Part shown: one piece after another, positions 14,641 through 50,403 of the stretch
Position numbering within the stretch: position 1 is the stretch's first letter
Layout of the letters: each line of letters starts with the position of its first letter
IMG/VR virus record: IMGVR_UViG_3300045963_000039
Location: 1-52,295 of that record
Length of the DNA: 52,295 bases
Origin: a virus
Lineage: Duplodnaviria; Caudoviricetes
Strand: one strand, 5' to 3'
Notes under the pieces: generated by a model
The model's database searches: none
Told to the model about the DNA's origin: nothing
The model's input: only the letters and a program-made list of their open reading frames with translations
Made by a program: the position numbers and the translations under genes

Positions 14641-14641
14641 T

Positions 14642-16123
14642 ATGGCGTTAGACGCAAATATAAGAGGGAGTTCCTCTGGAAATGGTGCTGAGGTTACAGC
14701 AACTAATGAATTAAGAGTTACTGGAGGTAGTGCAACTCTAGCAAATGCAGGCTATGCTGTTCATGCTTTCGAGAACTCAGATGGCACATATACTTCTGGA
14801 GTCCCTTATAGGATGTCTCCAAGAGTTACTGCTAATAAAGCGTTAAATGTAGGACAAGAGACTCCACTGTTCGACTATACATTCAACGCTACAGCTCAGA
14901 ATACCTCTCTATGGAAACATGTCTTTGTTACTCAAACAATGACACAATCCTCTGGATTCTTGAACGTTAATGCAAATGCTACAGGAACTACAACTACTCA
15001 CTGTTATCTACAAACATGGGCGCACTTTGCCCTTCGTGGTGGAAGTGGCATAAATGTATCCTTTTCTGCTCAAACTTCTCTAGCAGTACCAGCAAACCAG
15101 GTATTTGAAACAGGCCTGTTTCTTGGAGTAGCTAATGCTGTACCTGGAGATGGTGTATTTATACGTTGGACATCTGCTGGATTATATGGTGTTCTTTTAT
15201 ATAATGGTACAGAAACTGCAACATCAGTTTTCTCAGCTTTTACGCCATCTGTAGGTGTAAACTATACCTTCTATATTAAATGTCATGAGAACGAAGTAGA
15301 GTTCTATGTAGCACCACAGGGCTCTGAGCCACACCTTCTAGGAGAAATCTCTACTCCAGCAGGTAATGGACAGCCTTTTACAACTACAGCTCTTCCATTT
15401 ACTATCTCCAATAGAAACGCTGCTGCTGTAACATCTGCCACTACTTTTAAAGTATCTGATGTCTTTATAAACGCAATAGATCTTAACTATAATATTCCGA
15501 TCTCTCAACAGCAAGCAATGCTTGGTTTGATGGGTTCACAAGGGCAAGATGGCGGCACTTTAGGTACTACTGCTGTGTTTCCTAATGCTGCTGGTGCAAC
15601 TACTGTAACAGGTGGCTCATTATCACAGACTGTAGCATTATCTACAGGTCTTGGCGGTCAAGTAGGTATTACTGCCACTGTACCAGGTGTTGATGGTATG
15701 GTTACTAACTTCCAAGTCCCTACAGGTGGCGTAGCACAGACTCCTCGTAGGCTTGTTATAACAGGAATGAGAGTATCATCAGTTAACATCGGTGCTGCTG
15801 TTGCTGGTACAGCCAGTACACTATCTTGGTCATTGGCATATGGTGCAACAGGTGGCTCTATACCATCATTAGCTCAAGCAGATACTGGTTCTTTTGTAAC
15901 TGCTACAGCTAAATCATGGAGAAGAGTTCCAGTCGGTATGCAATCTTGGATTATAGGTGCTGCTGTAGGTCAACGAGAAGTTGATATAGATGTTAAGTTT
16001 ACATCACCTATAGTTGTAAATCCAGGTGAATGGGTCGGTGCTTGCGCTAAGTTTATTCAAGGTACTACTACAGCCTCTCAAGTTATCTTTACTAATGTGA
16101 TGTTTGATACCCACTATATTTAA
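14642..16123 (+). CDS. Tail fibre/spike-like structural protein
   Basis: 493 aa, G/T/A-rich, beta character; context. Confidence 0.65.
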   Translation: MALDANIRGSSSGNGAEVTATNELRVTGGSATLANAGYAVHAFENSDGTYTSGVPYRMSPRVTANKALNVGQETPLFDYTFNATAQNTSLWKHVFVTQTMTQSSGFLNVNANATGTTTTHCYLQTWAHFALRGGSGINVSFSAQTSLAVPANQVFETGLFLGVANAVPGDGVFIRWTSAGLYGVLLYNGTETATSVFSAFTPSVGVNYTFYIKCHENEVEFYVAPQGSEPHLLGEISTPAGNGQPFTTTALPFTISNRNAAAVTSATTFKVSDVFINAIDLNYNIPISQQQAMLGLMGSQGQDGGTLGTTAVFPNAAGATTVTGGSLSQTVALSTGLGGQVGITATVPGVDGMVTNFQVPTGGVAQTPRRLVITGMRVSSVNIGAAVAGTASTLSWSLAYGATGGSIPSLAQADTGSFVTATAKSWRRVPVGMQSWIIGAAVGQREVDIDVKFTSPIVVNPGEWVGACAKFIQGTTTASQVIFTNVMFDTHYI

Positions 16124-16141
16124 GTAGTGGTATAAACATAA

Positions 16142-17536
16142 ATGTCATTATTATTAGCACTCTTAAATACTACAAGTGGAGTTACTGGAACTGAAGTTAG
16201 AACTAATAATAATGACTCACTAGTCTCTAGCGGTACAACTTCAGTACTAGGTGCTTCTACCTATTTAAATAAAAAAGATTTCGGAGTTATCTCTGGAACA
16301 ACTACAATTTCAGGGTCATTATCTTATAATAATAAATTTGACTCTATAAGTTCATCAGGAAGTGTTGGAGTCTCAATCTCCGGTACACTCTCCTATAATA
16401 ATATAAGTGATACTGTCTCCTCCTCTGGTACTGGGGTTATAGTAGCTACACTTAATAGAATAAATATAAATGACTCAGTAGTTTCATCAGGAACTTCTAT
16501 AGTTTCTGGAACTATTTCATTTATTAATAAAAATGATACAATATCTTCTATTGGTACAAGTACAATCTCCGGTAGTACTTCTTATCTACTCTTTAGTGAT
16601 AAAGTAGTCTCTAGTGGTAGTGTAGGCTCAGCAATATCTGGAACACTCTCCTATACTAACAAGAATGACACCTTAGTTTCTGCTGGTAATATACTAATAG
16701 TAGGCTCTACTTCTTACTTAAATAAGAATGATTTTTTAGTTTCTATAGGGACAGTCTTAGTATCTGGATTTGTAGCATTTCTTAATAAGAATGATACTAT
16801 AAGCTCTACTGGTTCCCCAAGTGTATCAGCTACTCTAAATAGAATACTATTTAATGATACTATAGTTGCATCTGGAAGTTCTGGAACAGCAGCATTTGGT
16901 ACTCTAGCCTATACAAATAAAGATGACAAAGTAGTATCTGCTGGAGTTGTATCAATACTAGGCTCTTCTAGTACTCTTAATAAGAATGATACTTTAATCT
17001 CTGCTGGTAATATACTAATATCAGGAAGTAGTTCTACTCGTAATAAGAATGACAACTTATTATCTTCTGGTAATGTAGGAAGCCCTATATCTGGAGCACT
17101 ATCTACTACCAACAAGAATGATACTATAAGCTCTTCGGGAACAAGTATAGTCTCTGGAACTGTTAGTAGAAATAATAATCCAGACTCAAATGCCTCTTCT
17201 GGAACTACTAAGATATTAGGTAGTCTAAGTTATACTGAATCTAGAGATAGAGTAAGCTCTACTGGAAGTATAGTACAAAGTTCAACAGGTACAGTATCTG
17301 TAAGAAATAAGAATGACTCAGGAGTGGCAGTAAGTGTTATACAAATTACTGGGTCTGCAAATGTAAAAGAAATAAAAGATGCTATATTCTCTTCTGGGTT
17401 TACTGGATCATTTAATATAGTTAATTCACAAGTTAAAGCTTATGTACTAAGATCTACTCCAATTATCATAGTCTCAAGTAAATCACCAAATATAGTATCT
17501 GTTTCTAGTACTATTAAAGTTATAAATACAATATAA
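16142..17536 (+). CDS. Repeat-rich fibre-like protein
   Basis: About 22-aa repeats with N(K/N)ND(T/S)..S.G core along most of the length. Confidence 0.75.
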   Translation: MSLLLALLNTTSGVTGTEVRTNNNDSLVSSGTTSVLGASTYLNKKDFGVISGTTTISGSLSYNNKFDSISSSGSVGVSISGTLSYNNISDTVSSSGTGVIVATLNRININDSVVSSGTSIVSGTISFINKNDTISSIGTSTISGSTSYLLFSDKVVSSGSVGSAISGTLSYTNKNDTLVSAGNILIVGSTSYLNKNDFLVSIGTVLVSGFVAFLNKNDTISSTGSPSVSATLNRILFNDTIVASGSSGTAAFGTLAYTNKDDKVVSAGVVSILGSSSTLNKNDTLISAGNILISGSSSTRNKNDNLLSSGNVGSPISGALSTTNKNDTISSSGTSIVSGTVSRNNNPDSNASSGTTKILGSLSYTESRDRVSSTGSIVQSSTGTVSVRNKNDSGVAVSVIQITGSANVKEIKDAIFSSGFTGSFNIVNSQVKAYVLRSTPIIIVSSKSPNIVSVSSTIKVINTI

Positions 17537-17544
17537 GGTAATAA

Positions 17545-18063
17545 ATGACAATACTATATGTCGATGATTCTGGGCCAATAATATGGCCTGATACTGACTC
17601 TCATGATATTAACTCTAAGAAGTTCTACTATATTAACTATAGGCCTTCTACTCGTATAAACTCTACAGAATATATAAAGGGGGTAGATGTTATCATCCCC
17701 TCTACTTCTAATGGTTGTATGTATGAGTGTGTGTCAGGGGGTATTAGTGCAATATCAGAGCCTATATTTGATACTACAGAGGGTAAATTTGTAGTAGATG
17801 GCACAGTAAAGTGGAAATGTAAGCCCTTCTTGGCTAGATTAGGTTCTGCTGATGTTATTACAATATCCTCTTGGACTGGAGATGTGGGAGTGACTACTTC
17901 CAGTCCTATTATATTGAATAATATAGCTACAGGAGTTAGAGTTGACTCAGCACCTTCTACAGTTAAGAAGATCACAATAACAAATCATATTACAGTTCTT
18001 AGATCTTCTGGTCGTACAGAAGAGTTTGAGAAAAGTATTATAATTCCTATTAAGACTTTATAA
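17545..18063 (+). CDS. Hypothetical virion protein
   Basis: YEC...G.S...EP.F.T..G..V.DGTV.W.C module seen in fibre proteins. Confidence 0.65.
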   Translation: MTILYVDDSGPIIWPDTDSHDINSKKFYYINYRPSTRINSTEYIKGVDVIIPSTSNGCMYECVSGGISAISEPIFDTTEGKFVVDGTVKWKCKPFLARLGSADVITISSWTGDVGVTTSSPIILNNIATGVRVDSAPSTVKKITITNHITVLRSSGRTEEFEKSIIIPIKTL

Positions 18064-18560
18064 TGAGTACTGCTACTGTACAAGAAGAAAGAAGAAAGGC
18101 AGATGATCTAGCTGCACTATATACTAAATTAGGTGAACTAGCCTCTAAGTCTGAGACAAATGCAGATAGCATATCAAAGTTATGGGCTAGTCATACTACT
18201 GTAGAGAAAGAGATAGAGGCTAAACTAAGCTCGTTGACCACCTCTGTAACTACTTTCTCTACTCAATTTCAAGTATATATGGCCTCTCAAAAGTCATCTA
18301 GTGAAACTAAATATGATATATTTAAAACAGGATGGCCTGTATTAGTCACTCTGGTGGGTGCTGCCTTCTTTCTATTTCAACTAATAGACTCTAGACTTCC
18401 TCCTAAATTCGTACAACAACCCCCCGTAAAAGTAGAGTCTAGTACAGAGTCTCTAGAGTTTCTTAGACAAATGATGAAAGAGCAGAGTGAAACTATGAGT
18501 AAGATTAATGACTCTTTACTCGATATAAGTAACAAAAAGTCTGTTAAGTTCAGTAAATAA
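18063..18560 (+). CDS. Coiled-coil membrane protein (lysis-associated?)
   Basis: Helical N-terminal region, one TM (WPVLVTLVGAAFFLFQLI); adjacent to holin. Confidence 0.65.
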   Translation: MSTATVQEERRKADDLAALYTKLGELASKSETNADSISKLWASHTTVEKEIEAKLSSLTTSVTTFSTQFQVYMASQKSSSETKYDIFKTGWPVLVTLVGAAFFLFQLIDSRLPPKFVQQPPVKVESSTESLEFLRQMMKEQSETMSKINDSLLDISNKKSVKFSK

Positions 18561-25075: not shown

Positions 25076-25452
25076 ATGGCGTTAACAAACTTCGCTGGCT
25101 TAACATCCCAGCAAAAACTTGTCTGGTCTAGAGAGATCTGGCAGGCAGCTCGTGATTTATCATTCATCAATAAATTTGTTGGTGGTCCTGATGCTGTAAT
25201 TCAACGTATTACTGAGTTGACTAAAACTGAAAAAGGCGAACAGGTAATCATGTTCCTCTTGGCAGATTTGGTAGATGACGGTGTTGTTGGTGATAGCGAA
25301 AGGGAAGGTAACGAAGAAGAGATGAAGTCTTACAACCAGACTATCTCTATTGATTTGTTGTCTCACGGAGTTAGACAGAAGGGTAAATTAGCTGAGCAAA
25401 AGACTGTAGTTGGTTTTAGAGAAAATGCTCGTGACAGATTAGCATATTGGCT
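25076..25452 (+). CDS. Major capsid protein exon 1 (N4-gp56/DUF4043 type)
   Basis: MALTNF..L, IQRITELTK..KG, GV.GD...EGNEE, FRE.ARD.LAYW; ends in CT before the intron. Confidence 0.88.
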
Positions 25453-25613
25453 TAACGATACCAGGCCCTTAGCAGCGTAAGTTGTTTAGCAAATCCCTCT
25501 AATTGCTGGAAACTCTTTAAAATAGTTAAACTACAACATAATCTGAAAAGATAAGTGTGAATGTCAAAAATTAACTATTATAAGACAATCAGCAGCTAAT
25601 ACCCTAAAAAGTC

Positions 25614-26355: not shown

Positions 26356-27082
26356 TGCCAATCGTATGGATCAGCTAGCTTTCTTAACTATGGCAGGTAT
26401 TTCTTATGCCTTTAACAATGATGGTTCTCCTAGAACCTCAGGAGCTTTCGCAAGCTTGTCATTTGCATCTACTGTCGCTGCACCTACTACCAACCGTGCT
26501 AAACGTTGGGATGGGTTAAATAGCCAGTTAGTAGCAAGTAACACTGCTGCAATGCTTGCAACAGATACTTTAACTTATAAAGCTATCGTAGATACTGTTG
26601 TACAAGCTAAAACTCATTATATTAAGCCTTTGATGCAAGGTGGTAAAGAATACTATGTAGCCTTTATTCGCCCTGAAGGTCTTGCTCAGCTTAAGAAAGA
26701 TCAAGATTATCAAAGAGCAGTTGTAACTGGTGCTGATCGTGGCAAAGATAACCCTTTCTTCTCTGGTGGTATTCTGACTATTGATGGTGTTGTTTTCCAA
26801 GAACATCGTTTAGTCTATAATACTAAAGGTGCTTTATCTGGCTCTAAGTGGGGCGCATCAGGTACTATTGACGGTTCTAGAATGATGCTTTGTGGTAGCC
26901 AAGCTTTAGGTATGGCTGATCTAGGCGCTCCAGAATGGAATGAAAAATGGTTTAACTATGCTTCATCTCCTGGTATTAACGTAGATAAGATGTTTGGTTT
27001 ATTGAAACCTAAATTCTTCAGCATCTACGATAAGAGCGTTGAAGATTTCGGTGTATTCTGCGTAGATCACGCTATCTCTTAA
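26356..27082 (+). CDS. Major capsid protein exon 2
   Basis: (L)ANRMDQLAFL..., IKP, NPFFSG, CGSQAL, K.FGL.KP.F, EDFGV..VD.A; spliced product 367 aa. Confidence 0.88.
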
Positions 27083-38155: not shown

Positions 38156-41100
38156 ATGGCAGCTCTAGGACAAATAGACAATAATGCAGTTAGTAAATAT
38201 TTAGGAACTGGTAAGAAGTTAGGATCGACTCCAGCTCAACCTAGTGAAGAATTAAACGCTCTTAGAACTGCTGCTAGTAACGTAGACTCTGGAGATGGAC
38301 AAAGTACTCCAGGGCTTGCTAGAAACTTAGGTAAAACCTTCTTATCTAGTACTGTTAATCTAGGTAATGCAACTATAGAATCTGGTAGACAGCTCGGCCT
38401 AATCTCAAATGAGACAGCTAATCAACAACAAAAATTAGGCTCAGAATCAGCTCAAAAACTAGGTCAGTCTACCTCTCCTTCTTTTCAGAAAGAAGCTGCT
38501 AAACAAATATTCGATGAGAATGGAAAGTATACTGGAGATTTCTCTGGTACTACCCTTCTGCATAGACTTGTATCATCTACTCCAGATTTATTAGCTACAG
38601 TAGGACCAGCAGGTCTAGCGTCTAAAGGTCTTAAAGCCTTAGGAGCATCTAGTAAGATTGCAGGTGCTTTAGGAGCTGGAGCAGCAGAGGGAGTTGTTGC
38701 AGGTGCTGAAGGTGCTTCACAGAAACGTGGAGAGGTACTAAATACTCCTATAGAACAATTAAGAAATAGCCCAGAGTTTCAAAGCTCTCTTGTATCTCAA
38801 GATCAATCTATTCCATTAGATCAAAGAGAACAGAAAGCTAGAGAAGATATAGCAGGGAAGGCTGCATCTGATGTATTTGGACAGACTGCTGCATCTACTG
38901 GTATTATTGGGGTGGCTACAGGTGGTGGTGCTCTAGGAAGTATTCTAGCTAGTTCAGGTGGAAAGATTACTAAGAGTATTATTAAGTCAGTTGGTAAAGG
39001 ATTTGCTGAAGAAGCTCTACAAGAAGCTCCACAGTCTTACAATGAACAACTCATCTCTAATGCTGCCACTAAGAAGTATGTAGATCCTAATAAGAATATT
39101 ATGGATGGTACTCTTAATGCATTAGCAGAAGGTGCAGTTACTGGAGGTGTGTTAGGTGGAGTAGGGGCAGGTGGTGCTCATGTGACTGGTTCTATTGGAA
39201 GTAAACCAGTAGATCACTCAGAAGCAGTACAAGATCTTAATCCGCTTACAGGTGAGAAGTTCCAGAATAAAGATGTAATAAATGCATATACTAAATATAA
39301 TAATACTTTCAAGAATGTAGGGGATACTCAAGCTCCTGCCTACCAAGAAATTTATAATGCTGCTAAGACTAATTTAGATGGTATAATTCAGAAAGAACAA
39401 GAGAGTTCTCAACCTGACGCTATTAAAGTATCTGAAGCAAAGACTGTCCTCGATTTAATTCAAAGATCTCATGAGTCTTTATCTAAACAAGAAGACCTAG
39501 TAAAACAACAGGATCAAGAAGCTACTAAGCAAGTAGATGAAGCTACTAAAGTAACTCCAGAATCTTTTAATCCAGATAATTTATCTGGAACTGCCAATGT
39601 GACTGATAGTAGTCCAGCAGCTATAGATAATACTGTGTCTCCTGAAGCTCCGAATGTAAATGATATTACATCTGCATTTGATAATAAAACTACTATACAG
39701 CCTATAGAGGGCATTAATGCCAACCAAATCGAAAGCACAGCAACGACTGATGTTAGTAGCGGAGCACAACCCCAAGTTCAGGAAGCAAGTGGGCCTACCT
39801 CTGAAAGTAGCACAGGACTTCACACAAGCGGACAAGAAACTGGGCAAACTCAAGAGCAAAAAGTAGGCAATAATGGATCTAAGATAATACAATCTCAAAT
39901 TGAAAACTTAGATAATACTATTAAGCAGTTACCTAAAGATAGTGAAGAGCTTCCTAATATTATAGCTAGGAGAGATGCTTTAGTAACTCATCTTAATACT
40001 AATAATAATTTAGAATCTATTGTAGATTCTTCCAAAGTTAGTCAGTCTACTCCAGAGCCAGTACTTGATAGAAGAGACAACACTTCTAAACGTGATAGAT
40101 ACTCTAAACTAATATTAGATAGAAAGATAGCAGAGAATAGAACTCTTAAATCAGACTTGGCTGATGCTAACAAGGAATTAAGAACATCTTCAGTTACTGG
40201 CCTTCCTAATAAGAAAGCATTTACTGAGCTAGCCCCACCTCCCTTCGTTGCATCTGTTGATATAGATTCATTAAAATATATTAATGATAATCTAGGGCAT
40301 GATGCAGGTAATGAACTATTAAAGACTGTTGCTAAGGTTATAGCTAAACACTCTGATGCTTATCATATCTCTGGAGATGAAATATTAGTTAGAGGTAATT
40401 CTCAACAAGAACTTGAGACTCAACTTAGAGCTGCTCAGACTGAACTTAGATCTGGTGAGCATATTATTACTGGAGATAAAGCTACCTTCAATAAGCCAGG
40501 TTTCAGTTATGGTATAGCTCCTGTCTCTCAAGATGTACCTAGTGCAGTAAAGCAATCTGACTTATCTATGTTAGATAATAAAATTGCTAGAGAGGCTACA
40601 GGTGAAAGGGCGGCTCGTGGTGAGAAGCCAGATGGTTTTCAAGATATAGCTCTTACTCCAGCAGAAGAAGATGTTAAGATTAAATCTTTATCTAATATCC
40701 AATCTATTAAAGATGCTTTAGAGTCTGAAGAGGTAACGGTAGATAATGGAGTCATAGAAGATAACTCTATAGAACCAAATCTTTCTCCATACTCTCTAGA
40801 AGATCTACATACCCTCGATCAAGTAGTAGAAGCTATCTATAATAAAGATTTAGAAATAAAAGAAGCTAAAGATAATGGAGAATCTCTGGAAGTTCGCAAG
40901 AGTCTTCAACAAGAGAGAACTCAATTAGGTCTTAAGAAGGCTGAGATAGAAGGGGTTACTAGAACTACTCCAGTTAAAGTATCTCCTAAAAATAATTTAT
41001 TTAATGATGAAATAGACGAGGATGATAATGGTGACTTTACCGAAATTTCATTTGATACATCAGGTAGTATCTTTCAAAGTAAAACAACTTTTGAGCAAAA

Positions 41101-44100
41101 TAAAACTACTCTTAAAAGGTTAACTGATTCACTTAAGAAGAGTGTTCTTGATAATATATCTTTCCATTATATAGAAGATTTTAATACACATGACTGGGCT
41201 AATGAACCTAACATGTCTAACAGTATTAAGTCTAGAACTTTCTCTTCTAAAGAAAGGGCTTTCATAGTTACATCTAAAGGAAAGAGTTCTGTATACTTTA
41301 ATGATAAACTGATAGACTCTACTGAGCGTTTAGTAGGTACATTTGCTCATGAGGTGATAGGTCACTTTGGATTAAGAAAGATATTCACTAATCGTAATGA
41401 TGAGATCTCTGGAAGTAGAACAGGCTATGATACATTCTTATTAGATCTAGTAAATAATAATCCTAAGATGAGAGCTGATATTCTTTCACTCTTGCCTAGA
41501 TGGAAAACCTATTTAATGGACTATAATCTGTCACGACCTGAAAATCATATAAACACTTTATCATCAGATCAGGTGATTCAGTTCGGTAGAGAGAAGGTGC
41601 CTGTTGAAGTTGCTATTAAATTGGCAGATGAATACATGGCAGAGCTTGCCAAAGCTAAATTCCTTAATAGACAATTCGTAGATAAGGAAGTTGGTCTAGG
41701 TGCATCTCTTGGTAAAAAGAGATCTGCTTTAAGGATACAGAGAGATAACTGGTTTAATGGGTTTATTAGAAAAGTAAGACATATGTTTAGAAGAGTCTTC
41801 GGAGATGTGTTTGCTAATAATATATCTGATCAAGACTTAGAACAAGTTATAGCTAAGAGTGTTGATGATCAATTTGAAGTCTTATCAGACAAGTATTTAG
41901 ATACTCCATTTGATAGCAGTAATTATCTGGTATATGGAGGTTTAGATACTCCAGAAACTAATATTCCTTATCAGAGTAATGGTGAAGTGCAATTTGATTC
42001 AGAAGAGTTAGATGAGGATTTAATAACTCATAAGATGACTTTGATAGATGATACTTCTGCATTTATCACTGGAACATTAGATGGCTTTGGTAGTTTATCA
42101 GATACTATTCGTAGTAAAGCTTGGAAGGTTATAAATCAAAAGATTAATGATAGTCCAATACTTGCCTCTTTTAAAACATTTGGCAACATGTCCTATCAAG
42201 ATGCATATACCTCCATGCAGAATATCTTTAAAGGAAATATATCTCAGGTTGAAAAGAGTACTCATGCATTGGCTAAAGCTTTGAATGGTCTTAATGCTTT
42301 ACAGAATCAAGCAGTCTTTGAATACTTTACTACTAAAGATGCACAAGTAGACTCTCTTCCTTTAACTCCTATACAAAAGAATATAGTAAAAAATGCTAAA
42401 GATAATATACGAAACGTTGGTAGATCATTAGCAGATCTTAATATTATTAATAAAGATTCTTTTGAGAAGAATGAAGATGCTTACTTACACACAGTTTATC
42501 TAAAGTATGTAGATCAATATAGAGGTAGCAACAAGAAAACTTCTATGCTAAGTTGGGCTAAATCTCAGAAGAATTTAAGTGAAAGAGAGAAGTTAGCCTT
42601 AGGTCAGATTAAAGATGTTAAGTTCTTAGTACCTGAAACTCTAGGAGTTCTATTAAGAGATCATACTCTTCTTACTATGTTCTCTACTCTTAATCAAATG
42701 TCTAATGAAAATAATCTATTTTGGGTTATGACTAATAATGCTAAGATTAAGTATGGGACTACTAAGTTGGATATTGATTCAGCTTATGAGCAATTAGATC
42801 GTAATAATTTTATTATAGATCAACACTCTAAAGTTGATAAGAATACATTCGGTACTACTGATACTCAAATAGAACAACTTAAGAAAGATACAGAATCTCT
42901 TAAAGTTAATATAGATGCTGTAGAGAATGCAATATTATCTCAAGCTCATTCTCATGCTCTATCTAATAATCAGACTACTGAGCAAGATAAACACGCCTTC
43001 TTAAGACAACACTACGTTCGTTTACCTAAGAAGCCTCAGTTAGGCCGTCTTAGTAATAAGTGGGTACGTAAAGAGATTGCTAACGATCTTGATGCTATAA
43101 CATCTGCTTATACTCTACACGATAAGAATACTATAGAGAGGTTCTTTGCCCAGGGCGGTACTCTTGAAAGAATCAATAGATTCTGGAAAATGAGTATGGT
43201 TGCTTTAAATCCTGGAAGTTGGGTTAGAAATACCTTTGGTAACTTTGCGTTATTAGATTTATCTACTTCTACAAATAAAGCTAAATTGATAGGTATGCTT
43301 CACCAAGAAATCTCTGGTACTTTATCAGGAAATCAAAGTGAGTACTGGAGATTGGCAGATCAGTATGGTCTATTCGGTAGCACTTGGAGTGCTGTAGAGT
43401 TACAGGATATTTATAATAACTATGGAGATGATCTTAAGAAAGCTCAGATTGAATTTCATGCTAGAGAGAATACACCTATAGATCAAGCTTTACATTTTAC
43501 TGATGAAAGATTACTAGCATTTGGTAGAATAGCTGGACATAAAATAGGTAATAGTACATCAAAGGCTTATGCTCTATTAGAAGGTACATTTAAAACTGTA
43601 TCCTTTAGGGATTATATTCAACAATGGGAGTCTCAGAATAAAGATCAATATCCTAATGGATATAAAGATCAGCAATTAACTGCTTCTCAAAGACAAATTA
43701 TTTTCTCTAAGGCTGCATCACATGCCAATGAATCTCTATTTGATTATAGTCAAGTAAACAGTATGGTTAAGACTCTTCGGAGGGTACCATTTGGCGCTCC
43801 ATTTATAACATTCTCTTATAAAGCTGGCCCTGCTGCTATTAAAGCTATGGTCAATCATCCTATTAAGTTTGCTCAATATGCTACTCTTCCTGCTTTATTA
43901 ACTACCATCGCTATGATGGCTAATGATTGGGATGATGATGATATAGCTAAATTTAGACAAGCTCTTCCAGACTATTATAGAACTAATCCAGGAGTAGCTT
44001 TCTTACCTTTTAAAGATAAGGTTGGGAGAGTACAGATTCTACCTTTAGACTATATAATACCTTGGAGTCAGTACACAACTGCTGCTAGAGCAGTCTATGA

Positions 44101-44647
44101 AAACTTTAAGGTGGATGGAGGTGAGAGCCCTATTTCAACTGGAATAAAGTCAGGTGGTACAGTTCTTAATAAGTTTGGATTTTTAGGAGGCCCTACTCCT
44201 AGTGCAATCTCTGCTATGCTATCTGGTAAGGATAAGTTTACTGGACAATCTATTATAACTCCAGGTGCTTCAGCTTCTCAGCAGTTAGGGGAAAGTATGA
44301 CATTTGCATATAATATGATAACTCCAGCATGGCTAAGTAGTCATGGTTGGTTTGCTAAGATGTATGATGCTTTTAAAGATAAACCTACTACCAATAAGTT
44401 TGGGGATATTAAGTTTACTCCATTACAAGCAGTAGCAGATATAACAGGCTTTAGAGCTACATCAGTAAATGTACAAGCTGGGCTCCAGAATAGAAAGACT
44501 GGATTTGAATACAGACTTAAAGAAACAGCAACTCTTCGATCTAAGATCATTCATGATCCTAATGAGACTAATAAGGCTGCTAAATTAAGAGATGTAGCTC
44601 AGAGAGAGAAACTTATTCGTATACAGATGAGTGAAGCTTTAAAGTAA
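38156..44647 (+). CDS. Giant ejection-type polyvalent protein with GGDEF-like and zincin-like domains
   Basis: 2163 aa; Gly/Ala-rich N-terminal segments; aa ~676-810 GGDEF-like; HEVIGH at aa 1065 plus downstream E; last gene of the structural operon. Confidence 0.85.
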   Translation: MAALGQIDNNAVSKYLGTGKKLGSTPAQPSEELNALRTAASNVDSGDGQSTPGLARNLGKTFLSSTVNLGNATIESGRQLGLISNETANQQQKLGSESAQKLGQSTSPSFQKEAAKQIFDENGKYTGDFSGTTLLHRLVSSTPDLLATVGPAGLASKGLKALGASSKIAGALGAGAAEGVVAGAEGASQKRGEVLNTPIEQLRNSPEFQSSLVSQDQSIPLDQREQKAREDIAGKAASDVFGQTAASTGIIGVATGGGALGSILASSGGKITKSIIKSVGKGFAEEALQEAPQSYNEQLISNAATKKYVDPNKNIMDGTLNALAEGAVTGGVLGGVGAGGAHVTGSIGSKPVDHSEAVQDLNPLTGEKFQNKDVINAYTKYNNTFKNVGDTQAPAYQEIYNAAKTNLDGIIQKEQESSQPDAIKVSEAKTVLDLIQRSHESLSKQEDLVKQQDQEATKQVDEATKVTPESFNPDNLSGTANVTDSSPAAIDNTVSPEAPNVNDITSAFDNKTTIQPIEGINANQIESTATTDVSSGAQPQVQEASGPTSESSTGLHTSGQETGQTQEQKVGNNGSKIIQSQIENLDNTIKQLPKDSEELPNIIARRDALVTHLNTNNNLESIVDSSKVSQSTPEPVLDRRDNTSKRDRYSKLILDRKIAENRTLKSDLADANKELRTSSVTGLPNKKAFTELAPPPFVASVDIDSLKYINDNLGHDAGNELLKTVAKVIAKHSDAYHISGDEILVRGNSQQELETQLRAAQTELRSGEHIITGDKATFNKPGFSYGIAPVSQDVPSAVKQSDLSMLDNKIAREATGERAARGEKPDGFQDIALTPAEEDVKIKSLSNIQSIKDALESEEVTVDNGVIEDNSIEPNLSPYSLEDLHTLDQVVEAIYNKDLEIKEAKDNGESLEVRKSLQQERTQLGLKKAEIEGVTRTTPVKVSPKNNLFNDEIDEDDNGDFTEISFDTSGSIFQSKTTFEQNKTTLKRLTDSLKKSVLDNISFHYIEDFNTHDWANEPNMSNSIKSRTFSSKERAFIVTSKGKSSVYFNDKLIDSTERLVGTFAHEVIGHFGLRKIFTNRNDEISGSRTGYDTFLLDLVNNNPKMRADILSLLPRWKTYLMDYNLSRPENHINTLSSDQVIQFGREKVPVEVAIKLADEYMAELAKAKFLNRQFVDKEVGLGASLGKKRSALRIQRDNWFNGFIRKVRHMFRRVFGDVFANNISDQDLEQVIAKSVDDQFEVLSDKYLDTPFDSSNYLVYGGLDTPETNIPYQSNGEVQFDSEELDEDLITHKMTLIDDTSAFITGTLDGFGSLSDTIRSKAWKVINQKINDSPILASFKTFGNMSYQDAYTSMQNIFKGNISQVEKSTHALAKALNGLNALQNQAVFEYFTTKDAQVDSLPLTPIQKNIVKNAKDNIRNVGRSLADLNIINKDSFEKNEDAYLHTVYLKYVDQYRGSNKKTSMLSWAKSQKNLSEREKLALGQIKDVKFLVPETLGVLLRDHTLLTMFSTLNQMSNENNLFWVMTNNAKIKYGTTKLDIDSAYEQLDRNNFIIDQHSKVDKNTFGTTDTQIEQLKKDTESLKVNIDAVENAILSQAHSHALSNNQTTEQDKHAFLRQHYVRLPKKPQLGRLSNKWVRKEIANDLDAITSAYTLHDKNTIERFFAQGGTLERINRFWKMSMVALNPGSWVRNTFGNFALLDLSTSTNKAKLIGMLHQEISGTLSGNQSEYWRLADQYGLFGSTWSAVELQDIYNNYGDDLKKAQIEFHARENTPIDQALHFTDERLLAFGRIAGHKIGNSTSKAYALLEGTFKTVSFRDYIQQWESQNKDQYPNGYKDQQLTASQRQIIFSKAASHANESLFDYSQVNSMVKTLRRVPFGAPFITFSYKAGPAAIKAMVNHPIKFAQYATLPALLTTIAMMANDWDDDDIAKFRQALPDYYRTNPGVAFLPFKDKVGRVQILPLDYIIPWSQYTTAARAVYENFKVDGGESPISTGIKSGGTVLNKFGFLGGPTPSAISAMLSGKDKFTGQSIITPGASASQQLGESMTFAYNMITPAWLSSHGWFAKMYDAFKDKPTTNKFGDIKFTPLQAVADITGFRATSVNVQAGLQNRKTGFEYRLKETATLRSKIIHDPNETNKAAKLRDVAQREKLIRIQMSEALK

Positions 44648-45725: not shown

Positions 45726-47408
45726 TTAGCCCTCACAAGCTACACATTCACCTTTACTGGTACTAACACCAGACTCACTTCTTATATAGTATAAAGATTT
45801 AATGTTGGGGTCTTTGAAGGCCATTTGATGAACTTCAGATATATACCCTTCATCTTCATCAGCACTAAAGAATAGATTGATAGACTGAGCTTGATCTATA
45901 TATCTCTGTCTAGTAGATGCCATTCGTATGATGGCCTTCTGATCTATTTCAAATGCGGTCTTAAATACATCCTTCTCATGATCTGATAACCAATCAACTC
46001 CTTGTACACTTCCTTTATTCTTTATAATATCTGAAATAGTTTCTTTAGAATATACCCCCTTCTCTTTCATAACTTTAAGAAGAGAGGGATTCACTCTATC
46101 CATTTCTCCTGATGCACTGCCTTGTATATAGGCATTCTTATATATAGGCTCTATACCTTGACTAACTCCACCGCATATCAACGATGAGGAGAGATTAGGA
46201 GCTATAGCTAATAGAGTAGAGTTTGCTCTTCCTGTAGCAAATGTAACCTTACACTCTTTAAATACATCTACTAACCATCTACTAGCATTATTGCTTTCAT
46301 GATATATCTCTTTAAATAATTCTATATTCTTAAGATGTGCTTCTAAACTCTCAAAAGGAATACTCTTATCTTGTAGATATGTATGGAAACCTAATGCTCC
46401 TAATCCTAAAGCCATATGATTACGTGTAAAGTTTACAGCTTTCTCTAGACCTTTTATCTTAGACCCAATCTCTATAAAGTTTAATGCTACACAATGCAGA
46501 AATACTATGCTATCAAAGATTGTATCTGTATCTTTCCACTCATCATATTTAGAAAGATTAAGTGAAGATAATACGCAAGTAAAAGTTTCATCATGATTTG
46601 ATGGAAGAGCTATTTCTGTACAAAGATTAGAGGCTAGGATTGGCATATCAACATAGAAATCTGGAGCTAGTCTATTCACTTTATCTGTAAAGAAGTAATA
46701 ACCTTTACCAGAGATCATTTTTAACTTTAGAGACTTCTGATAACGATCTATAGCATCAGGATCTCCTTTATCTAATCTATCTATAAAATCATCAGATATA
46801 CACCAACCAATATTAGCATCATCAGGATTCTTAGATATATAGTTTAATAGCTCATAGAAATCATCATGATCTATGGGTAGATAGCCAGCCCATGCACCTC
46901 TTCTACTTCCTTGATTAATATCTCTGCTAACTTGAACGAAGTCTTTGAAGACTGGCAAAACTCCAGAACTACTCCCTCTCATACCAGTTATCTTACTTCC
47001 TCTAGGTCTAATATCTCCTAGATAGCCTGAAGTACCAAACCCATTTTTAGAGAGAAGTGCAGCTTCTAATTGTCCTTCATAGAAACCATAAACACTATCA
47101 TCTATATACCCTCCAGAACAAGATACAGGACAACCTTTACTTCTTCCCATACTAGAAAGAACTGGAGTAGATGCCGCTAACCAACCATTCCAAAGTAGAT
47201 TGAAGAACTTCTTATTCCAGTAAGGTCTCTCTGGCATATATCTGGAAGCAGTCCTTGCTATCATTTGGAATCTAGCTTTGAGAGTCTCTCCTTCTTCTAG
47301 ATACTTATCCTTAAGCATTTGATAGGAGTTAGTTGTTACCCATTCTGGCATCTCTCCAGCATCTTGTAACTCTTTCCTCTCTTTAGATAATTGTTTATAC
47401 AGATTCAT
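45726..47408 (-). CDS. nrdA: Ribonucleotide reductase class I alpha subunit
   Basis: PVSC, QG.RRGA.A.Y, SNLCTE, CVLSS.N, AIAPN.SSS, IDQAQS.NL, SLYY, C-terminal CVACEG. Confidence 0.95.
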   Translation of the reverse strand: MNLYKQLSKERKELQDAGEMPEWVTTNSYQMLKDKYLEEGETLKARFQMIARTASRYMPERPYWNKKFFNLLWNGWLAASTPVLSSMGRSKGCPVSCSGGYIDDSVYGFYEGQLEAALLSKNGFGTSGYLGDIRPRGSKITGMRGSSSGVLPVFKDFVQVSRDINQGSRRGAWAGYLPIDHDDFYELLNYISKNPDDANIGWCISDDFIDRLDKGDPDAIDRYQKSLKLKMISGKGYYFFTDKVNRLAPDFYVDMPILASNLCTEIALPSNHDETFTCVLSSLNLSKYDEWKDTDTIFDSIVFLHCVALNFIEIGSKIKGLEKAVNFTRNHMALGLGALGFHTYLQDKSIPFESLEAHLKNIELFKEIYHESNNASRWLVDVFKECKVTFATGRANSTLLAIAPNLSSSLICGGVSQGIEPIYKNAYIQGSASGEMDRVNPSLLKVMKEKGVYSKETISDIIKNKGSVQGVDWLSDHEKDVFKTAFEIDQKAIIRMASTRQRYIDQAQSINLFFSADEDEGYISEVHQMAFKDPNIKSLYYIRSESGVSTSKGECVACEG

Positions 47409-48421
47409 TAAGAGACCTCATAGTTTACTAAAGACCCACTCCACTTAAATGCGGTCTCACTCCAATTTCTATTATAATCTGACCCCTGACGAACAAAGAA
47501 ATCATGGAGTACAGAACTATTCAAGTTATTATAAAACCAATCTTTAATAGGATTATATTTAGGTAAATAAATCGGTTTAATATTTAATTGAGATAAACAA
47601 ATATCTAATCTAGATTCTACAAAGTTTATAAGTTGATGAGCTGTTATCCCTTTTATCTCACCTCTCTCAAATATCTTATTAATGATTACAGTTTCATGTT
47701 CTAATATAATCTTAGAAGTATCTACTATATCTTCTACAAGCTCTGTAATATTGAAATTAGGATTCTCGGATAGAACTTCAGATAGGTACGTGTTATATAA
47801 CCAAGCACCTCCTTGACTATGAAGATCTTCATCTTGTGCAGAGAAGTTAATACCAGCATTAATATTGACAAGTTTATTCTTTCCTTGTGTTTGAAAGTGC
47901 TTAATAAAAGCAAATGAACTATAAAGTACAGCCCCTTCTATCATAGAGAAAATTGCTATACTCTTCAATCTATTAAAATGTGTATCTCTTTTTTCAACTC
48001 GCTTTCCTATCCACTTCATTCTATTAGTTAATATAGGATCATCTAAGTATGAGTTATAAAACTCATCAGTATCCAAACCTAGCAGCTCATTAAGTCTACT
48101 ATAGAATGGTGCATGAACACCTAACTCCATAAAAGAGAATGTAGCTGCCATACGCTGAATATCAGGGCGAGGGAAGATACTAGAAATATAGTCTTTCCAG
48201 TATTCGTTCCCAACTGACAACTCGTAGATTGTAAAAAGCTTAAGAACAGAGATGATACCATGATACTCACTAGCAGTAAAATTAGTTTTAAGATCATGTA
48301 TATCCTTTTCTATTTCTATTTCATCTGGCAACCAGAAGATTTCAGATTGTTGTCTAGCAAATGAGACAGCCTGTGGATAGTCTATTGTATATGTAGATTT
48401 AGGTTGTAGAATTTTTATCAA
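47408..48421 (-). CDS. nrdB: Ribonucleotide reductase class I beta subunit
   Basis: FWLPDE, E..VH...Y, EG..LYSSFA, DEDLH, DFF...Y; TTG start. Confidence 0.93.
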   Translation of the reverse strand: MIKILQPKSTYTIDYPQAVSFARQQSEIFWLPDEIEIEKDIHDLKTNFTASEYHGIISVLKLFTIYELSVGNEYWKDYISSIFPRPDIQRMAATFSFMELGVHAPFYSRLNELLGLDTDEFYNSYLDDPILTNRMKWIGKRVEKRDTHFNRLKSIAIFSMIEGAVLYSSFAFIKHFQTQGKNKLVNINAGINFSAQDEDLHSQGGAWLYNTYLSEVLSENPNFNITELVEDIVDTSKIILEHETVIINKIFERGEIKGITAHQLINFVESRLDICLSQLNIKPIYLPKYNPIKDWFYNNLNSSVLHDFFVRQGSDYNRNWSETAFKWSGSLVNYEVS

Positions 48422-48735: not shown

Positions 48736-50403
48736 CTATGGTTTAGGTAAATTTGGATCAGTTGCTGACCATTGAATCTCATAACTAGCAGGTTGTACTT
48801 GGCTTAATGGGTCTTTAGTTGACCAGTATAGGAAGGAGCTATTAATAACAATAGTTTTACCGTTATTAATAATATACCAACCATTATCAGCACTATTCGG
48901 CATGTGTGCTTCTATTATCCCTATTAATGCATTTAATATTGGATCAGAAGTTGTAGTATTTCCTGTCCAACCTGTACCTAATGTTACTGGATACCATTTT
49001 TTATTAATAATTGGTTTACACTTCGGCAACTTCATCAGCTCATCCATGACCTTTTTAAAGTTAACTACTCCGGTTTTTACTTGGCTATTAGCTATATTAG
49101 TTATATGAGCTACTCTATTTAAAGCTTGATCTGGTAAGTTTTCCAAGAAGTCTTTTTTAAGCGGAGTAGCCGTAGCAGCCATAGCCTTATAGACGTCATC
49201 TCTATTAACCGAAGGGCACTGATCTTTAATTAGCGTACCCATTGCTGCCGAATCACTAGTAGCAGTAGAAGAGCCACCATAATAAGCAGGTTTACTTGTA
49301 ACACCACCGCCATCAGTTACTTTCTGTGCAAGCCCACTCATGTGAACACAGAAGTCGGGCCCGTCTACTCCAGAATCGGATGCTAAGGTAACTGCTCCTA
49401 ATACTGGATTATCAACACACATACCAACTCGTAAGATACTAGGGTTATACTTCTTACCGTGATCAGTAAACCCATTATTGCCCATTGCTTGGAATACTAG
49501 TGTATTATGCTTACTAGCAATAGAAGTCATCATGGCATCTTCTTCTGGCCTATTACCGTTAGCCTTATCTTCTGAGAGTGATACCACTGACTGATCTGTA
49601 TGTGCTGGAAAATTTAACTCCGCATCTACTTGTGTAAGCCCTGCCTCTATATCTCTATCCGCAATATCAGCACCCTCAGATACAGCAACTGGAAATACTT
49701 TAGTCGTCTCATGTGTTAGACTACACACGTTATTATCCATAATATTTCCGTGCTCTTGTATTTCGCTAGGTAGTTTTTCATAAGGCTGTTGATATCCTTT
49801 AGCCTTAGCTGTACCGGTTACTTTACCAGGAAGTAGTTTAGGTGGGCATCCAATTACTCCAAATGGTTCATTCCGTTCCGAATCTACAACGTAAATTTTA
49901 GCTGGTACTCCATCTATACCTTTATGTGGGTAAACTTGTAGGAACTCATTAAGACCTAACCAGGTAGGTTCATCATAAACAGGTATACCAAAAGGCTCTG
50001 ATACTGTCCAGGTACTTTCTGCGGCGTTACCGATAAAAGTTAAACATTTATTATTTAACGTAAGCTTATTGGAAAATCTTTTTAAGATAGTCCTTAGGAA
50101 AACCTGGTATGACACAGCCCCTTTAGGTGTTACCCTATTCTTATACATAGCCATATAAAGAGGGTCAAGCTGAGGAGAGCTAATAACGTAGTCTATGTAG
50201 GTAACACCTAAAGATTTATGGGTTAAGCTAGCCTTATTATACATAGGCCCATCATTTAAAAATACGGAAGTACCCCTAGGCATCGACACTTGAGCCATGA
50301 AGTTTTTGTAAGTACAAGAAGGAGTTTTTGTAACATGAACGCCGAGTATAGGGGCTGCATTTAAACTTGAACAAAACAACATCAATATCAAAAGTTTCTT
50401 CAT
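48736..50403 (-). CDS. Secreted subtilisin-like (S8) serine protease
   Basis: Signal peptide MKKLLILMLFCSSLNA; IYVVDS (Asp), EHGN (His), AMGNNG (oxyanion Asn), GGSSTAT (Ser) in S8 order. Confidence 0.72.
   Translation of the reverse strand: MKKLLILMLFCSSLNAAPILGVHVTKTPSCTYKNFMAQVSMPRGTSVFLNDGPMYNKASLTHKSLGVTYIDYVISSPQLDPLYMAMYKNRVTPKGAVSYQVFLRTILKRFSNKLTLNNKCLTFIGNAAESTWTVSEPFGIPVYDEPTWLGLNEFLQVYPHKGIDGVPAKIYVVDSERNEPFGVIGCPPKLLPGKVTGTAKAKGYQQPYEKLPSEIQEHGNIMDNNVCSLTHETTKVFPVAVSEGADIADRDIEAGLTQVDAELNFPAHTDQSVVSLSEDKANGNRPEEDAMMTSIASKHNTLVFQAMGNNGFTDHGKKYNPSILRVGMCVDNPVLGAVTLASDSGVDGPDFCVHMSGLAQKVTDGGGVTSKPAYYGGSSTATSDSAAMGTLIKDQCPSVNRDDVYKAMAATATPLKKDFLENLPDQALNRVAHITNIANSQVKTGVVNFKKVMDELMKLPKCKPIINKKWYPVTLGTGWTGNTTTSDPILNALIGIIEAHMPNSADNGWYIINNGKTIVINSSFLYWSTKDPLSQVQPASYEIQWSATDPNLPKP

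What the first reader, a model, noticed from the sequence alone, without database searches (positions are those of the whole stretch)
40181..40590. Variant GGDEF nucleotide-cyclase domain inside the giant putative ejection protein
Seen: aa ~676-810 read ELRTSSVTGLPNKKAF...VDIDSLKYINDNLGHDAGNELL...YHISGDEILV...FSYGIA...SDLSMLDNK, matching the diguanylate-cyclase pattern (TGLxN, DID.FK..ND..GH..GD, GGDEF, SxG, AD.AM..AK). A likely coiled coil precedes it. Metal-binding D702 and the DE of the signature (SGDEI, aa 739-743) are kept. No canonical RxxD I-site is present, and the guanine-reading Asp of GHxxGD is Asn (N719). Known: Asp-to-Ser at this position in Hypr/GacA GGDEFs shifts output to 3',3'-cGAMP. 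Inference: a virion-delivered enzyme could make or bind a cyclic dinucleotide at the moment of injection, before gene expression. Possible uses are rewiring motility, pili or biofilm, receptor shut-off, or interfering with nucleotide-signal immunity.
Basis: partly seen in the sequence, partly recalled or inferred. Interest (0 to 1): 0.88.

Follow-up and report, generated by a model that had tools for sequence, protein, structure and literature searches.

The report
GGDEF cyclase module in phage giant protein
An uncultured wetland phage carries a genuine, intact-looking copy of the bacterial enzyme domain that makes cyclic-di-GMP-type signals inside a 2,163-residue protein it probably packs into its particle and injects, a design predicted from sequences in 2017 and still untested.

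Summary
Residues 681-830 of the 2,163-aa ORF (38156-44647, +) are a GGDEF domain: Pfam 35.2 bits against a cut-off of 23.8, AlphaFold pLDDT 95.6, and only GGDEF structures among the top PDB fold matches. A 36-residue stalk helix precedes it, and a homodimer model passes its controls. D702, N710, D741, E742 and K809 are kept, there is no RxxD I-site, and the guanine-reading Asp is Asn719.

It belongs to a large clade (649 cluster representatives at E<=1e-10; I examined the best 150). Members sit mostly in giant phage polyvalent proteins and share an SGDEF signature, a shortened alpha1 and a conserved GERAxRGExPxG tail. Asn719 is a recurrent minority variant (29 of 162 domains, at least 22 switches), so it is not unique to this phage.

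The two closest phages have the same giant protein without the GGDEF module, so the module is swappable cargo. Iyer et al. (2017) already catalogued GGDEF domains in polyvalent proteins, and this scan has found the design on other DNA (35 notes in at least 34 genomes), including the Asp/Asn dimorphism.

Verdict: a new member of a known, experimentally untested kind. Product, packaging and injection remain inferred.

The parts
38156..44647 (+). Giant ORF, 2163 aa. It is the last gene of the + strand structural block and a probable polyvalent or internal virion protein.
   Evidence: It starts 8 nt after the preceding 365-aa ORF. The portal, split major head protein, Hc3-like and baseplate-like genes lie upstream.
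38387..39784 (+). N-terminal Ala/Gly-rich region (aa 78-543), shared with other giant virion-type phage proteins.
   Evidence: PHROG matches to phrog_10089 (DarB-like, E 1.1e-13), phrog_2206 (virion RNA polymerase, E 2.6e-11) and phrog_938 (E 1.9e-9).
39356..40072 (+). S/T/Q/N/E-rich, low-complexity linker (about aa 401-639) between the N-terminal region and the cyclase module.
   Evidence: S, T, Q and N together make up 0.35-0.44 of the residues in the windows aa 401-600. This stretch and the GGDEF module have no counterpart in the syntenic giant protein of MW202615.1.
40073..40180 (+). Stalk helix (aa 640-675), predicted to form a parallel coiled coil.
   Evidence: The AF2 model has a helix at model residues 5-40. 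The homodimer model has in-register contacts at model residues 15-40.
40196..40582 (+). GGDEF catalytic core (aa 681-809).
   Evidence: Pfam PF00990 at 35.2 bits against a cut-off of 23.8. AF2 pLDDT is 95.6. The best Foldseek PDB match is 7e6g_A at E 1.5e-10, and all listed rows are GGDEF structures.
40259..40261 (+). D702, the metal-binding Asp of the DxD motif.
   Evidence: Aligned to the DxD of solved cyclases. Asp in 161 of 162 clade domains.
40310..40312 (+). N719 (codon aat), at the position of the guanine-reading Asp of GHxxGD.
   Evidence: In the clade this position is D in 131, N in 29 and T in 2 of 162. The same letters occur in a contig of run X3.
40370..40384 (+). Signature SGDEI (aa 739-743), equivalent to GG[DE]EF.
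   Evidence: In the clade: S 138 of 162, G740 162, D741 161, E742 159, F 143 and I 7.
40583..40645 (+). Clade-specific C-terminal tail IAREATGERAARGEKPDGFQD (aa 810-830).
   Evidence: Conservation in the clade: R812 151, G816 159, R818 158, R821 152, G822 158 and P825 152 of 162. The clade profile aligns to most solved cyclases only up to profile position about 152-154 of 174. It is modelled as a loop plus a last strand at pLDDT about 89-96.
41348..41365 (+). HEVIGH (HExxxH) motif, aa 1065-1070, in a conserved module of about 300 aa that may be a zincin-like peptidase.
   Evidence: 41 of 158 local proteins, this one included, have the module, mostly as HExxGH. The fold model is weak (pLDDT 65.2) and has no significant PDB match.
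42023..44644 (+). C-terminal 874 aa, conserved in related phages and possibly a divergent LPD38-type region.
   Evidence: 62% identity to L083 and 54% to MW202615.1. The nearest Atlas clusters carry PF18857 LPD38 at score 0.98, which is a lead only. BLASTP to an LPD38-bearing protein is not significant.

Best explanation
Residues about 640-830 of the giant protein form a self-dimerising, feedback-insensitive GGDEF nucleotide cyclase. It is carried as a swappable cargo module of a phage polyvalent protein.

Shown: the fold, the intact catalytic residues, the stalk helix, the absence of an I-site, clade membership and the cassette behaviour.

Inferred: the protein is packed into the virion with the other structural-block products and enters the cell with the DNA. 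The stalk holds two domains with their active sites facing each other. Each half-site binds a purine NTP through N710 and N719 and Mg2+ through D702 and D741. E742 acts as the base across the dimer, and the pair condenses two NTPs into a cyclic dinucleotide without product inhibition.

The likeliest product is c-di-GMP. Asn719 can in principle pair with guanine or adenine, so a mixed or adenine-containing product is possible. The resulting burst would reset c-di-GMP-type signalling in the host (motility, pili, surface polysaccharide) or interfere with nucleotide-based immunity before any phage gene is expressed.
For: Family and fold:
- Pfam GGDEF is above its cut-off.
- The clade profile hits 48 solved sequences at E<=0.001, best 6zxb_A at 1.3e-13.
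- The AF2 model has pLDDT 95.6 and pTM 0.84.
- Foldseek gives 96 PDB matches at E<=0.001. All listed rows are GGDEF structures, led by the stalk or coiled-coil cyclases SiaD 7e6g and DgcB 6ttr.

Purifying selection on the catalytic set across 162 clade domains: D702 161, N710 162, G740 162, D741 161, E742 159, K809 160.

No I-site: RxxD occurs upstream of the signature in 4 of 162.

Dimer: ipSAE is 0.61 against a best of 3 controls of 0.00.
- That mark was reached by 20 of 30 proteins solved as pairs of one chain and by 1 of 23 solved as single chains.
- The runs agree in at least 96% of contacts and partner pLDDT is at least 87.
- Contacts lie along the helix and between the two S739-G740 loops.
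- Similar coiled-coil GGDEF dimers are solved, so the pass may reflect likeness.

Polyvalent context: of 18 sampled relatives, 6 carry LPD38, 5 InPase, 4 ART-PolyVal, 3 RadC and 1 MuF_C. A pyrophosphatase in the same polypeptide fits an NTP-condensing enzyme.

The gene ends the structural block, and the N-terminus resembles giant virion-protein PHROGs.

Cassette behaviour: orthologous giants in MW202615.1 and L083 lack the module (0 of 2 records match profile A1; the positive control on the own record gives E 1.4e-59). P0002 and P0024 keep it.

A standalone clade member in Bordetella phage CN1 lies next to an anti-restriction gene, which fits an early role.
Against: - No activity, product, virion proteomics or injection data exist for this or, in my searches, any clade member.
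- P0001 itself has no Pfam polyvalent-associated domain besides GGDEF.
- The guanine-reading Asp is replaced, and the canonical NRR after TGLxN reads NKK (KK in 3 of the 160 domains with D or N at position 719). This particular copy could therefore be weakened.
- alpha1 is about 11 residues shorter than in solved cyclases.
- The host is unknown, so whether it uses c-di-GMP is unknown.
- The dimer result is a prediction.
Confidence: 0.55

Rival explanations
1. The domain is an active cyclase but is not delivered at injection. The giant protein, or a released fragment, acts in the producing cell late in infection, for example by altering surface structures or biofilm state before lysis. Alternatively the module is cleaved off and never packaged.
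For: The gene is a late structural-block gene, so the protein is present in the cell late in infection. A zincin-like HExxxH module in the same protein could process it. Iyer et al. note that P1 DdrB is processed before packaging (PMC5512222, passage). There are no proteomic data.
Against: Relatives fuse the same domain to MuF_C and LPD38. Iyer et al. link MuF proteins with the phage head and list LPD38 as a phage-type-only domain. A standalone clade member sits among early genes beside an anti-restriction gene, pointing to an early role.
Confidence: 0.2
2. The domain condenses or consumes NTPs but its product is not c-di-GMP. It could be a mixed or adenine-containing cyclic dinucleotide, a linear pppNpN, or simple NTP hydrolysis, and it serves as a decoy or jammer of nucleotide-based immunity rather than as a c-di-GMP signal.
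For: - Asn719 replaces the guanine-specific Asp.
- The clade uses only the GGDEF-type central Asp (161 of 162). According to Hallberg et al. 2019 this is the only background in which altered base readers stay active (PMC6456294, passages).
- D and N switch at least 22 times on the domain tree.
- By recall, GGDEF domains with ATPase activity exist (YybT/GdpP); I saw only the reference title.
Against: 131 of 162 clade domains keep Asp. No pocket residue co-varies with Asn. The sugar-face Asn710 is invariant. I found no measurement for Asn at this position.
Confidence: 0.15
3. The domain is catalytically dead in this phage. It would then be a structural spacer or a nucleotide-binding module retained from an active ancestor.
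For: It has non-canonical SGDEI, NKK instead of NRR, N719 and a shortened alpha1.
Against: SGDEF and the short alpha1 are the clade norm under strong conservation. All metal, base and transition-state residues are present. There is no I-site to serve as a binding site. The module is kept intact across 40-57% identical relatives.
Confidence: 0.1

Closest known systems
GGDEF domains in phage and prophage polyvalent proteins (Iyer, Burroughs, Anand, de Souza, Aravind 2017, J Bacteriol; PMC5512222; example Acetonema longum WP_004096050.1)
   Same: A GGDEF domain embedded in a giant multi-domain protein of a tailed phage, encoded with virion genes and proposed to be injected with the DNA. Relatives carry the same LPD, InPase, ART-PolyVal and RadC partners.
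   Different: That paper calls GGDEF 'not very widespread' in polyvalent proteins. Here the clade has 649 cluster representatives at E<=1e-10 (best 150 examined). This copy has only GGDEF by Pfam, plus an unrecognised HExxxH module, and has Asn at the guanine-reading site. I read passages only; the paper's supplementary alignments were not available to me.
Stalk or coiled-coil diguanylate cyclases: P. aeruginosa SiaD (7e6g), Caulobacter DgcB (6ttr), GCN4-WspR fusion (3i5c)
   Same: A helix followed by GGDEF. These are the best structural matches (E 1.5e-10 to 2.7e-9, TMq 0.53-0.69). The predicted parallel dimer places the signature loops face to face.
   Different: Identity is 19-22%. The phage domain has no sensor or partner, no RxxD I-site, alpha1 about 11 residues shorter, SGDEI instead of GG[DE]EF, an extra conserved tail, and Asn for the guanine-reading Asp.
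Hypr GGDEF enzymes (Geobacter GacA; PDB 5VS9 as named in PMC6456294, and 6d9m)
   Same: A changed Watson-Crick-face residue on a GGDEF-type (central Asp) signature, which is the background Hallberg et al. report as required for altered specificity.
   Different: Hypr enzymes have Ser or Thr, not Asn. They are Rec-regulated bacterial signalling proteins with an I-site. No product data exist for Asn.
Short standalone GGDEF proteins of YuA-like Pseudomonas phages and Bordetella phages (e.g. CN1 APL99421.1, 152 aa)
   Same: Same clade features: short alpha1, [AS]GDEF, and the K..RE..G.RAARGE.P tail. tblastn identity is 33-39%. The BFVD match is E 3.7e-12 with TMt 0.80.
   Different: They are free-standing early-region genes with only a short N-terminal helix and are not part of a virion protein.
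Virion-packaged, injected phage enzymes (T4 Alt ADP-ribosyltransferase, N4 virion RNA polymerase), as summarised in PMC5512222
   Same: The working logic is the same: an enzyme delivered with the genome that acts before phage gene expression. The N-terminal region matches a PHROG annotated as virion RNA polymerase.
   Different: The chemistry is unrelated. Packaging and injection are demonstrated for Alt and N4 but only inferred here.

Membership tests
GGDEF domain (Pfam PF00990) | Profile score above the curated cut-off | tested here: met
   35.2 bits against 23.8 for the whole protein, and 41 bits for the 220-aa piece. The six-frame search gives 38.9 bits.
GGDEF domain (Pfam PF00990) | GGDEF / class III cyclase-like fold | tested here: met
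   AF2 pLDDT 95.6. There are 96 PDB matches at E<=0.001 and all listed rows are GGDEF structures.
Catalytically competent diguanylate cyclase | Metal-binding Asp of DxD, the Asp/Glu and the Glu of the signature, the sugar-face Asn, and the Lys of the C-terminal helix | tested here: met
   D702, D741, E742, N710 and K809 are present and aligned to solved cyclases. Each is conserved in at least 159 of 162 clade domains. The roles of these residues are taken from PMC6456294 passages and from recall of PleD work.
Catalytically competent diguanylate cyclase | Guanine-reading Asp of GHxxGD (PleD D344 by recall) | tested here: not met
   GHDAGN: Asn719, codon aat. In the clade: D 131, N 29, T 2 of 162.
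Catalytically competent diguanylate cyclase | Homodimer with the two half-sites facing each other | tested here: inconclusive
   Prediction only. Score 0.61 against a best control of 0.00. The mark was reached by 20 of 30 solved homodimers and 1 of 23 single chains. Contacts agree at least 96% and pLDDT is at least 87. Similar dimers are solved, so memory is possible.
Catalytically competent diguanylate cyclase | Synthesis of c-di-GMP from GTP | not testable with these tools
   Needs an enzyme assay.
Feedback-inhibited diguanylate cyclase | RxxD I-site just upstream of the signature | tested here: not met
   KHSD at aa 731-734. RxxD occurs in 4 of 162 clade domains.
Hypr GGDEF (cGAMP-forming) | Ser or Thr at the Watson-Crick-face position together with GGDE[F/Y] | tested here: not met
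   The residue is Asn, not Ser or Thr. The central Asp is present (SGDEI).
Polyvalent protein (Iyer et al. 2017) | Two or more domains of unrelated activity in one giant polypeptide | tested here: inconclusive
   GGDEF is firm. The second module (HExxxH, aa about 985-1300) has no Pfam hit, a weak model (pLDDT 65.2) and no significant fold match. It recurs in 41 of 158 local proteins, this one included.
Polyvalent protein (Iyer et al. 2017) | Polyvalent-associated domains (LPD, MuF, ART-PolyVal and others) in the protein or its homologues | tested here: inconclusive
   None in P0001 itself. Among 18 sampled GGDEF-clade relatives: LPD38 6, InPase 5, ART-PolyVal 4, RadC 3, LPD22 2 and MuF_C 1. 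There is an Atlas lead to LPD38 for the C-terminus, but BLASTP is not significant.
Polyvalent protein (Iyer et al. 2017) | Encoded among virion genes of a portal-terminase phage | tested here: met
   Portal, split major head protein, Hc3-like and baseplate-like genes lie upstream on the same strand.
Polyvalent protein (Iyer et al. 2017) | Packaged in the virion and injected | not testable with these tools
   Needs virion proteomics and infection assays.

The most novel reading that the evidence does not exclude
The repeated Asp/Asn switching at the base-reading position of an unregulated, injected GGDEF enzyme reflects an arms race over product identity. On this reading, Asn719 enzymes such as this one make an adenine-containing or mixed purine cyclic dinucleotide at the moment of DNA entry. 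The product would pre-empt, jam or mimic the host's cyclic-nucleotide immune or lifestyle signals, giving a virion-delivered counterpart of Hypr enzymes that arose many times in phages.
Probability: 0.15. Interest if true: 0.8.

Novelty: new member of a known kind. Interest (0 to 1): 0.5.

Why it matters
If the module is active and injected, phages would be delivering a second-messenger synthase as a protein. That would change host signalling in the first seconds of infection, before transcription.

Reviews of c-di-GMP signalling still list very few phage elements (PMC10333796, passage read). The clade seen here is large and mostly confined to giant phage proteins. It also offers a natural Asp/Asn series for asking how GGDEF enzymes choose their base.

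The value lies in the clade rather than in this window. This copy is one of many, and the design has been in print as a prediction since 2017.

Tried and rejected
- Megablast of the giant gene against the phage collection gave no match.
- Pfam found nothing in the orthologous giants P0016 or L083, so I could not name what replaces the GGDEF module there.
- Local BLASTP of P0001 against P0016 listed only the C-terminal HSP. The N-terminal likeness rests on the two-piece, 77% coverage tblastn result.
- I looked for positions co-varying with Asn719 and found none that stood out (highest total-variation distance 0.48).
- I looked for published data on Asn at the guanine-reading position. Searches and passages of PMC6456294 deal with Ser/Thr only. 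The 2016 Hypr paper was not read.
- I looked for experimental work on phage or polyvalent GGDEF enzymes. Only the 2017 prediction, reviews and unrelated systems turned up; I saw listings and abstracts only, except where passages are cited.
- I could not map the cross-dimer Arg of Hallberg et al. onto K686/K687 with certainty, so that point is left open.
- The C-terminal 874 aa against the LPD38-bearing P0013 gave BLASTP E 0.41 at best. The LPD38 reading stays an Atlas lead.
- The HExxxH region model has pLDDT 65.2. Foldseek PDB gave 0 matches at E<=0.001; the best was human MATCAP at E 0.13-0.2, which by my recollection is an HExxxH metalloprotease. This is a weak lead only.
- Sequencing runs: no RNA holder is listed. 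Run X1 laid no contig.
- Host: the best bacterial-genome hit is a 6.8-kb contig binned with a Methylobacter MAG (55% identity). I rejected it as host evidence because the contig is short and may itself be phage.
- Supplementary files of the papers were closed. The alignments of Iyer et al. may already show the clade features that I describe.
Full report
**What is there.** The window is a 52,295-bp linear IMG/VR virus record, 81% complete by CheckV. ORF 38156..44647 (+) encodes 2,163 aa. It is the last gene of a + strand structural block that holds the portal, a split major head protein, an Hc3-like head-closure protein and a baseplate-like protein. Ribonucleotide reductase genes follow on the opposite strand.

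The finding's coordinates correspond to aa 676-812. Motifs lie at TGLPN 681-685, DID 702-704, GHDAGN 714-719, SGDEI 739-743, FSYGIA 783-788 and LDNK 806-809.

**Is it a GGDEF domain?** Yes.
- Pfam PF00990 scores 35.2 bits (cut-off 23.8; E 1.3e-8) over aa 698-809, and 41 bits on the excised 220-aa piece. It is the only such match in six frames of the record.
- phmmer against PDB sequences finds 22 entries at E<=0.01, best 6eib at 2.6e-6.
- A profile of 35 clade members finds 48 PDB sequences at E<=0.001, best 6zxb at 1.3e-13.
- AlphaFold2 on aa 636-835 with that alignment gives pLDDT 95.6 and pTM 0.84: a helix at aa 640-675 followed by a compact alpha/beta domain.
- Foldseek finds 96 PDB matches at E<=0.001. 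All listed rows are GGDEF structures, led by SiaD 7e6g (E 1.5e-10, TMq 0.69), DgcB coiled-coil-GGDEF 6ttr and GCN4-WspR 3i5c.
- Among predicted viral structures, 8 match at E<=0.001. These include a giant viral protein (E 1e-18) and the Bordetella phage CN1 GGDEF protein (E 3.7e-12).

**Residue calls.**
- Alignments to solved cyclases place D702 in the DxD metal site. They place N710 at the conserved Asn of 'ND', N719 under the Asp of GHxxGD, and SGDEI under GG[DE]EF.
- The four residues where an I-site would lie read KHSD.
- Relative to solved enzymes, about 11 residues are missing between the TGLxNRR segment and the DxD strand.
- Codon 719 is aat. A 432-nt contig from a wetland-metagenome run of a different study, not flagged as a possible source, is identical over 40195-40626.

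**The clade.** A whole-library phmmer search with aa 636-835 returns 3,895 cluster representatives at E<=0.001, 649 at E<=1e-10 and 13 at E<=1e-30. I examined the best 150.
- Together with the 14 other proteins, this makes 155 other proteins. Their median length is 2,103 aa; 120 are at least 1,000 aa and 9 are under 400 aa.
- A local phmmer found 164 domain hits in 156 proteins. I dropped 2 partial hits and aligned 162.
- The clade consensus is T-G-L-P-N-R-R-A-Y ... D-x-D-S-L-K-W-V-N-D-N-x-G-H-x-A-G-[D/N] ... Y-H-I-S-G-D-E-F ... S-Y-G ... A-D ... K-x-x-R-E-x-x-G-E-R-A-x-R-G-E-x-P-x-G.
- Counts of 162: D702 161, D704 160, N710 162, G718 161, S739 138 (G 13), G740 162, D741 161, E742 159, K809 160, R812 151, R818 158, R821 152, P825 152.
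- The tail lies beyond where the clade profile aligns to most solved cyclases (profile position about 152-154 of 174).
- RxxD lies upstream of the signature in only 4 of 162.
- SGDEF, the short alpha1, the missing I-site and the GERAxRGExPxG tail are therefore clade characters, not peculiarities of this phage.

**Asn719.** Position 719 is Asp in 131, Asn in 29 and Thr in 2 of 162.
- On a FastTree of the domains, built without that column, the states need at least 22 changes. The tree of a 170-residue domain is weakly resolved, so this count may be inflated.
- No other column tracks the Asn state.
- Among the nearest relatives, P0019 and P0022 have Asn, while P0002, P0024, P0003 and P0004 have Asp.
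- Hallberg et al. 2019 show that Ser at this position lets a GGDEF enzyme accept adenine. They also show that only GGDEF-type (central Asp) signatures tolerate such a change (PMC6456294, passages). This clade is 161 of 162 central-Asp.
- I found nothing on Asn. It is my inference from chemistry that a carboxamide could pair with either purine.

**Dimer.** A two-copy model scores 0.61 (runs 0.60, 0.61, 0.61) against a best of 3 controls of 0.00.
- That mark was reached by 20 of 30 proteins solved as pairs of one chain and by 1 of 23 solved as single chains.
- Runs agree in at least 96% of contacts and partner pLDDT is at least 87.
- Contacts run in register along aa 650-675 and between S739-G740 of the two chains.
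- Coiled-coil GGDEF dimers are in the PDB, so this shows likeness rather than proof.

**Context: a polyvalent protein.**
- The 14 other giant proteins found carry precomputed Pfam accessions alongside GGDEF. In some searches these accessions resolve to LPD39, InPase, ART-PolyVal, LPD22, LPD1 and LPD38.
- For a wider sample I took every fifth of the 101 proteins of at least 1,000 aa among P0025-P0157, which gave 21, and dropped the 3 longest to fit the size limit. In the remaining 18, Pfam finds LPD38 in 6, InPase in 5, ART-PolyVal in 4, RadC in 3, LPD22 in 2 and MuF_C in 1.
- Iyer et al. 2017 defined these proteins, proposed that they are injected with the DNA, and explicitly listed GGDEF among their nucleotide-metabolism domains as 'not very widespread'. 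They listed LPD38 and InPase as phage-type only (PMC5512222, passages).
- P0001 itself shows only GGDEF by Pfam.
- Its N-terminal aa 78-543 match PHROGs of giant virion-type proteins.
- Its C-terminal 874 aa are nearest to Atlas clusters carrying LPD38, which is a lead only.
- An HExxxH module (aa 1065-1070 within about 985-1300) recurs in 41 of 158 local proteins, this one included. It could not be assigned a fold.

**Cassette behaviour.**
- The complete podovirus genome MW202615.1 has a syntenic 2,166-aa protein. It is 54% identical over aa 928-2162 and similar at the N-terminus.
- IMG/VR record L083 (66,846 bp, 100% complete) has a 2,420-aa counterpart that is 62% identical in the C-terminal part.
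- Neither record matches the clade profile (0 of 2). The same profile finds the window at E 1.4e-59.
- More distant orthologues P0024 (40% over aa 51-2162) and P0002 keep the module.
- The cyclase, with its low-complexity linker, is therefore exchangeable cargo.

**Standalone relatives.** tblastn finds 52 phage records, mostly YuA-like Pseudomonas phages and Bordetella phages. The 152-aa CN1 protein has the clade's short alpha1, AGDEF and tail, and lies beside a gene annotated as anti-restriction protein.

**Mechanism and rivals.** The best reading is a constitutive, feedback-free, coiled-coil-dimerised purine-NTP cyclase delivered with the genome.
- Shown: fold, residues, clade membership and cassette behaviour.
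- Inferred: activity, product, packaging and injection.
- Rivals: the enzyme acts late or is not packaged; it makes a product other than c-di-GMP; or it is an inactive relic. The last is the least likely given the conservation.

**Novelty.** The design is in print as a prediction. A 2023 review still lists only a YuA-type short GGDEF among phage c-di-GMP elements (PMC10333796, passage). My searches found no experiment.

This scan has noted the same design on other DNA: 35 notes in at least 34 genomes. These include the Asp/Asn dimorphism and an SGDEF module in another giant protein. My own tests agree with those notes.

I rate it a new member of a known, untested kind, with interest 0.5.

Noticed in passing
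window 41108-42055 (aa 985-1300; HEVIGH at 41348-41365): A conserved module of about 300 aa with an HExxGH (HExxxH) motif recurs in 41 of 158 GGDEF-clade giant proteins, this one included, while the relative P0016 has HELGH. The AF2 model is weak (pLDDT 65.2) and has no significant PDB match. The best, non-significant hit is human MATCAP.
   Followed up: partly
window 25076-25480 and 26366-27082: The major head protein is split.
   Followed up: no
L002 (MW202615.1) 11938-18438 and L083 1360-8619: Orthologous giant proteins of two complete related phages carry a different, unrecognised middle segment where this phage has linker plus GGDEF. Pfam finds nothing in either, although GenBank calls the first a 'DNA repair protein'.
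   Followed up: partly
proteins P0017, P0021, P0023 (478-544 aa): Some small clade members contain two tandem GGDEF modules in one polypeptide (two matched stretches each). This could give an intramolecular pseudo-dimer.
   Followed up: no
window 40583-40645 (aa 810-830): The tail K-x-x-R-E-x-x-G-E-R-A-x-R-G-E-x-P-x-G is nearly invariant across the clade and has no aligned counterpart in most solved diguanylate cyclases. Its role is unknown; extra phosphate contacts, a dimer contact or a processing site are possibilities.
   Followed up: partly
window 45726-48421 (- strand): Ribonucleotide reductase large and small subunit genes lie immediately downstream of the structural block on the opposite strand. 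A 555-aa ORF at 48736-50403 has no PHROG match.
   Followed up: no
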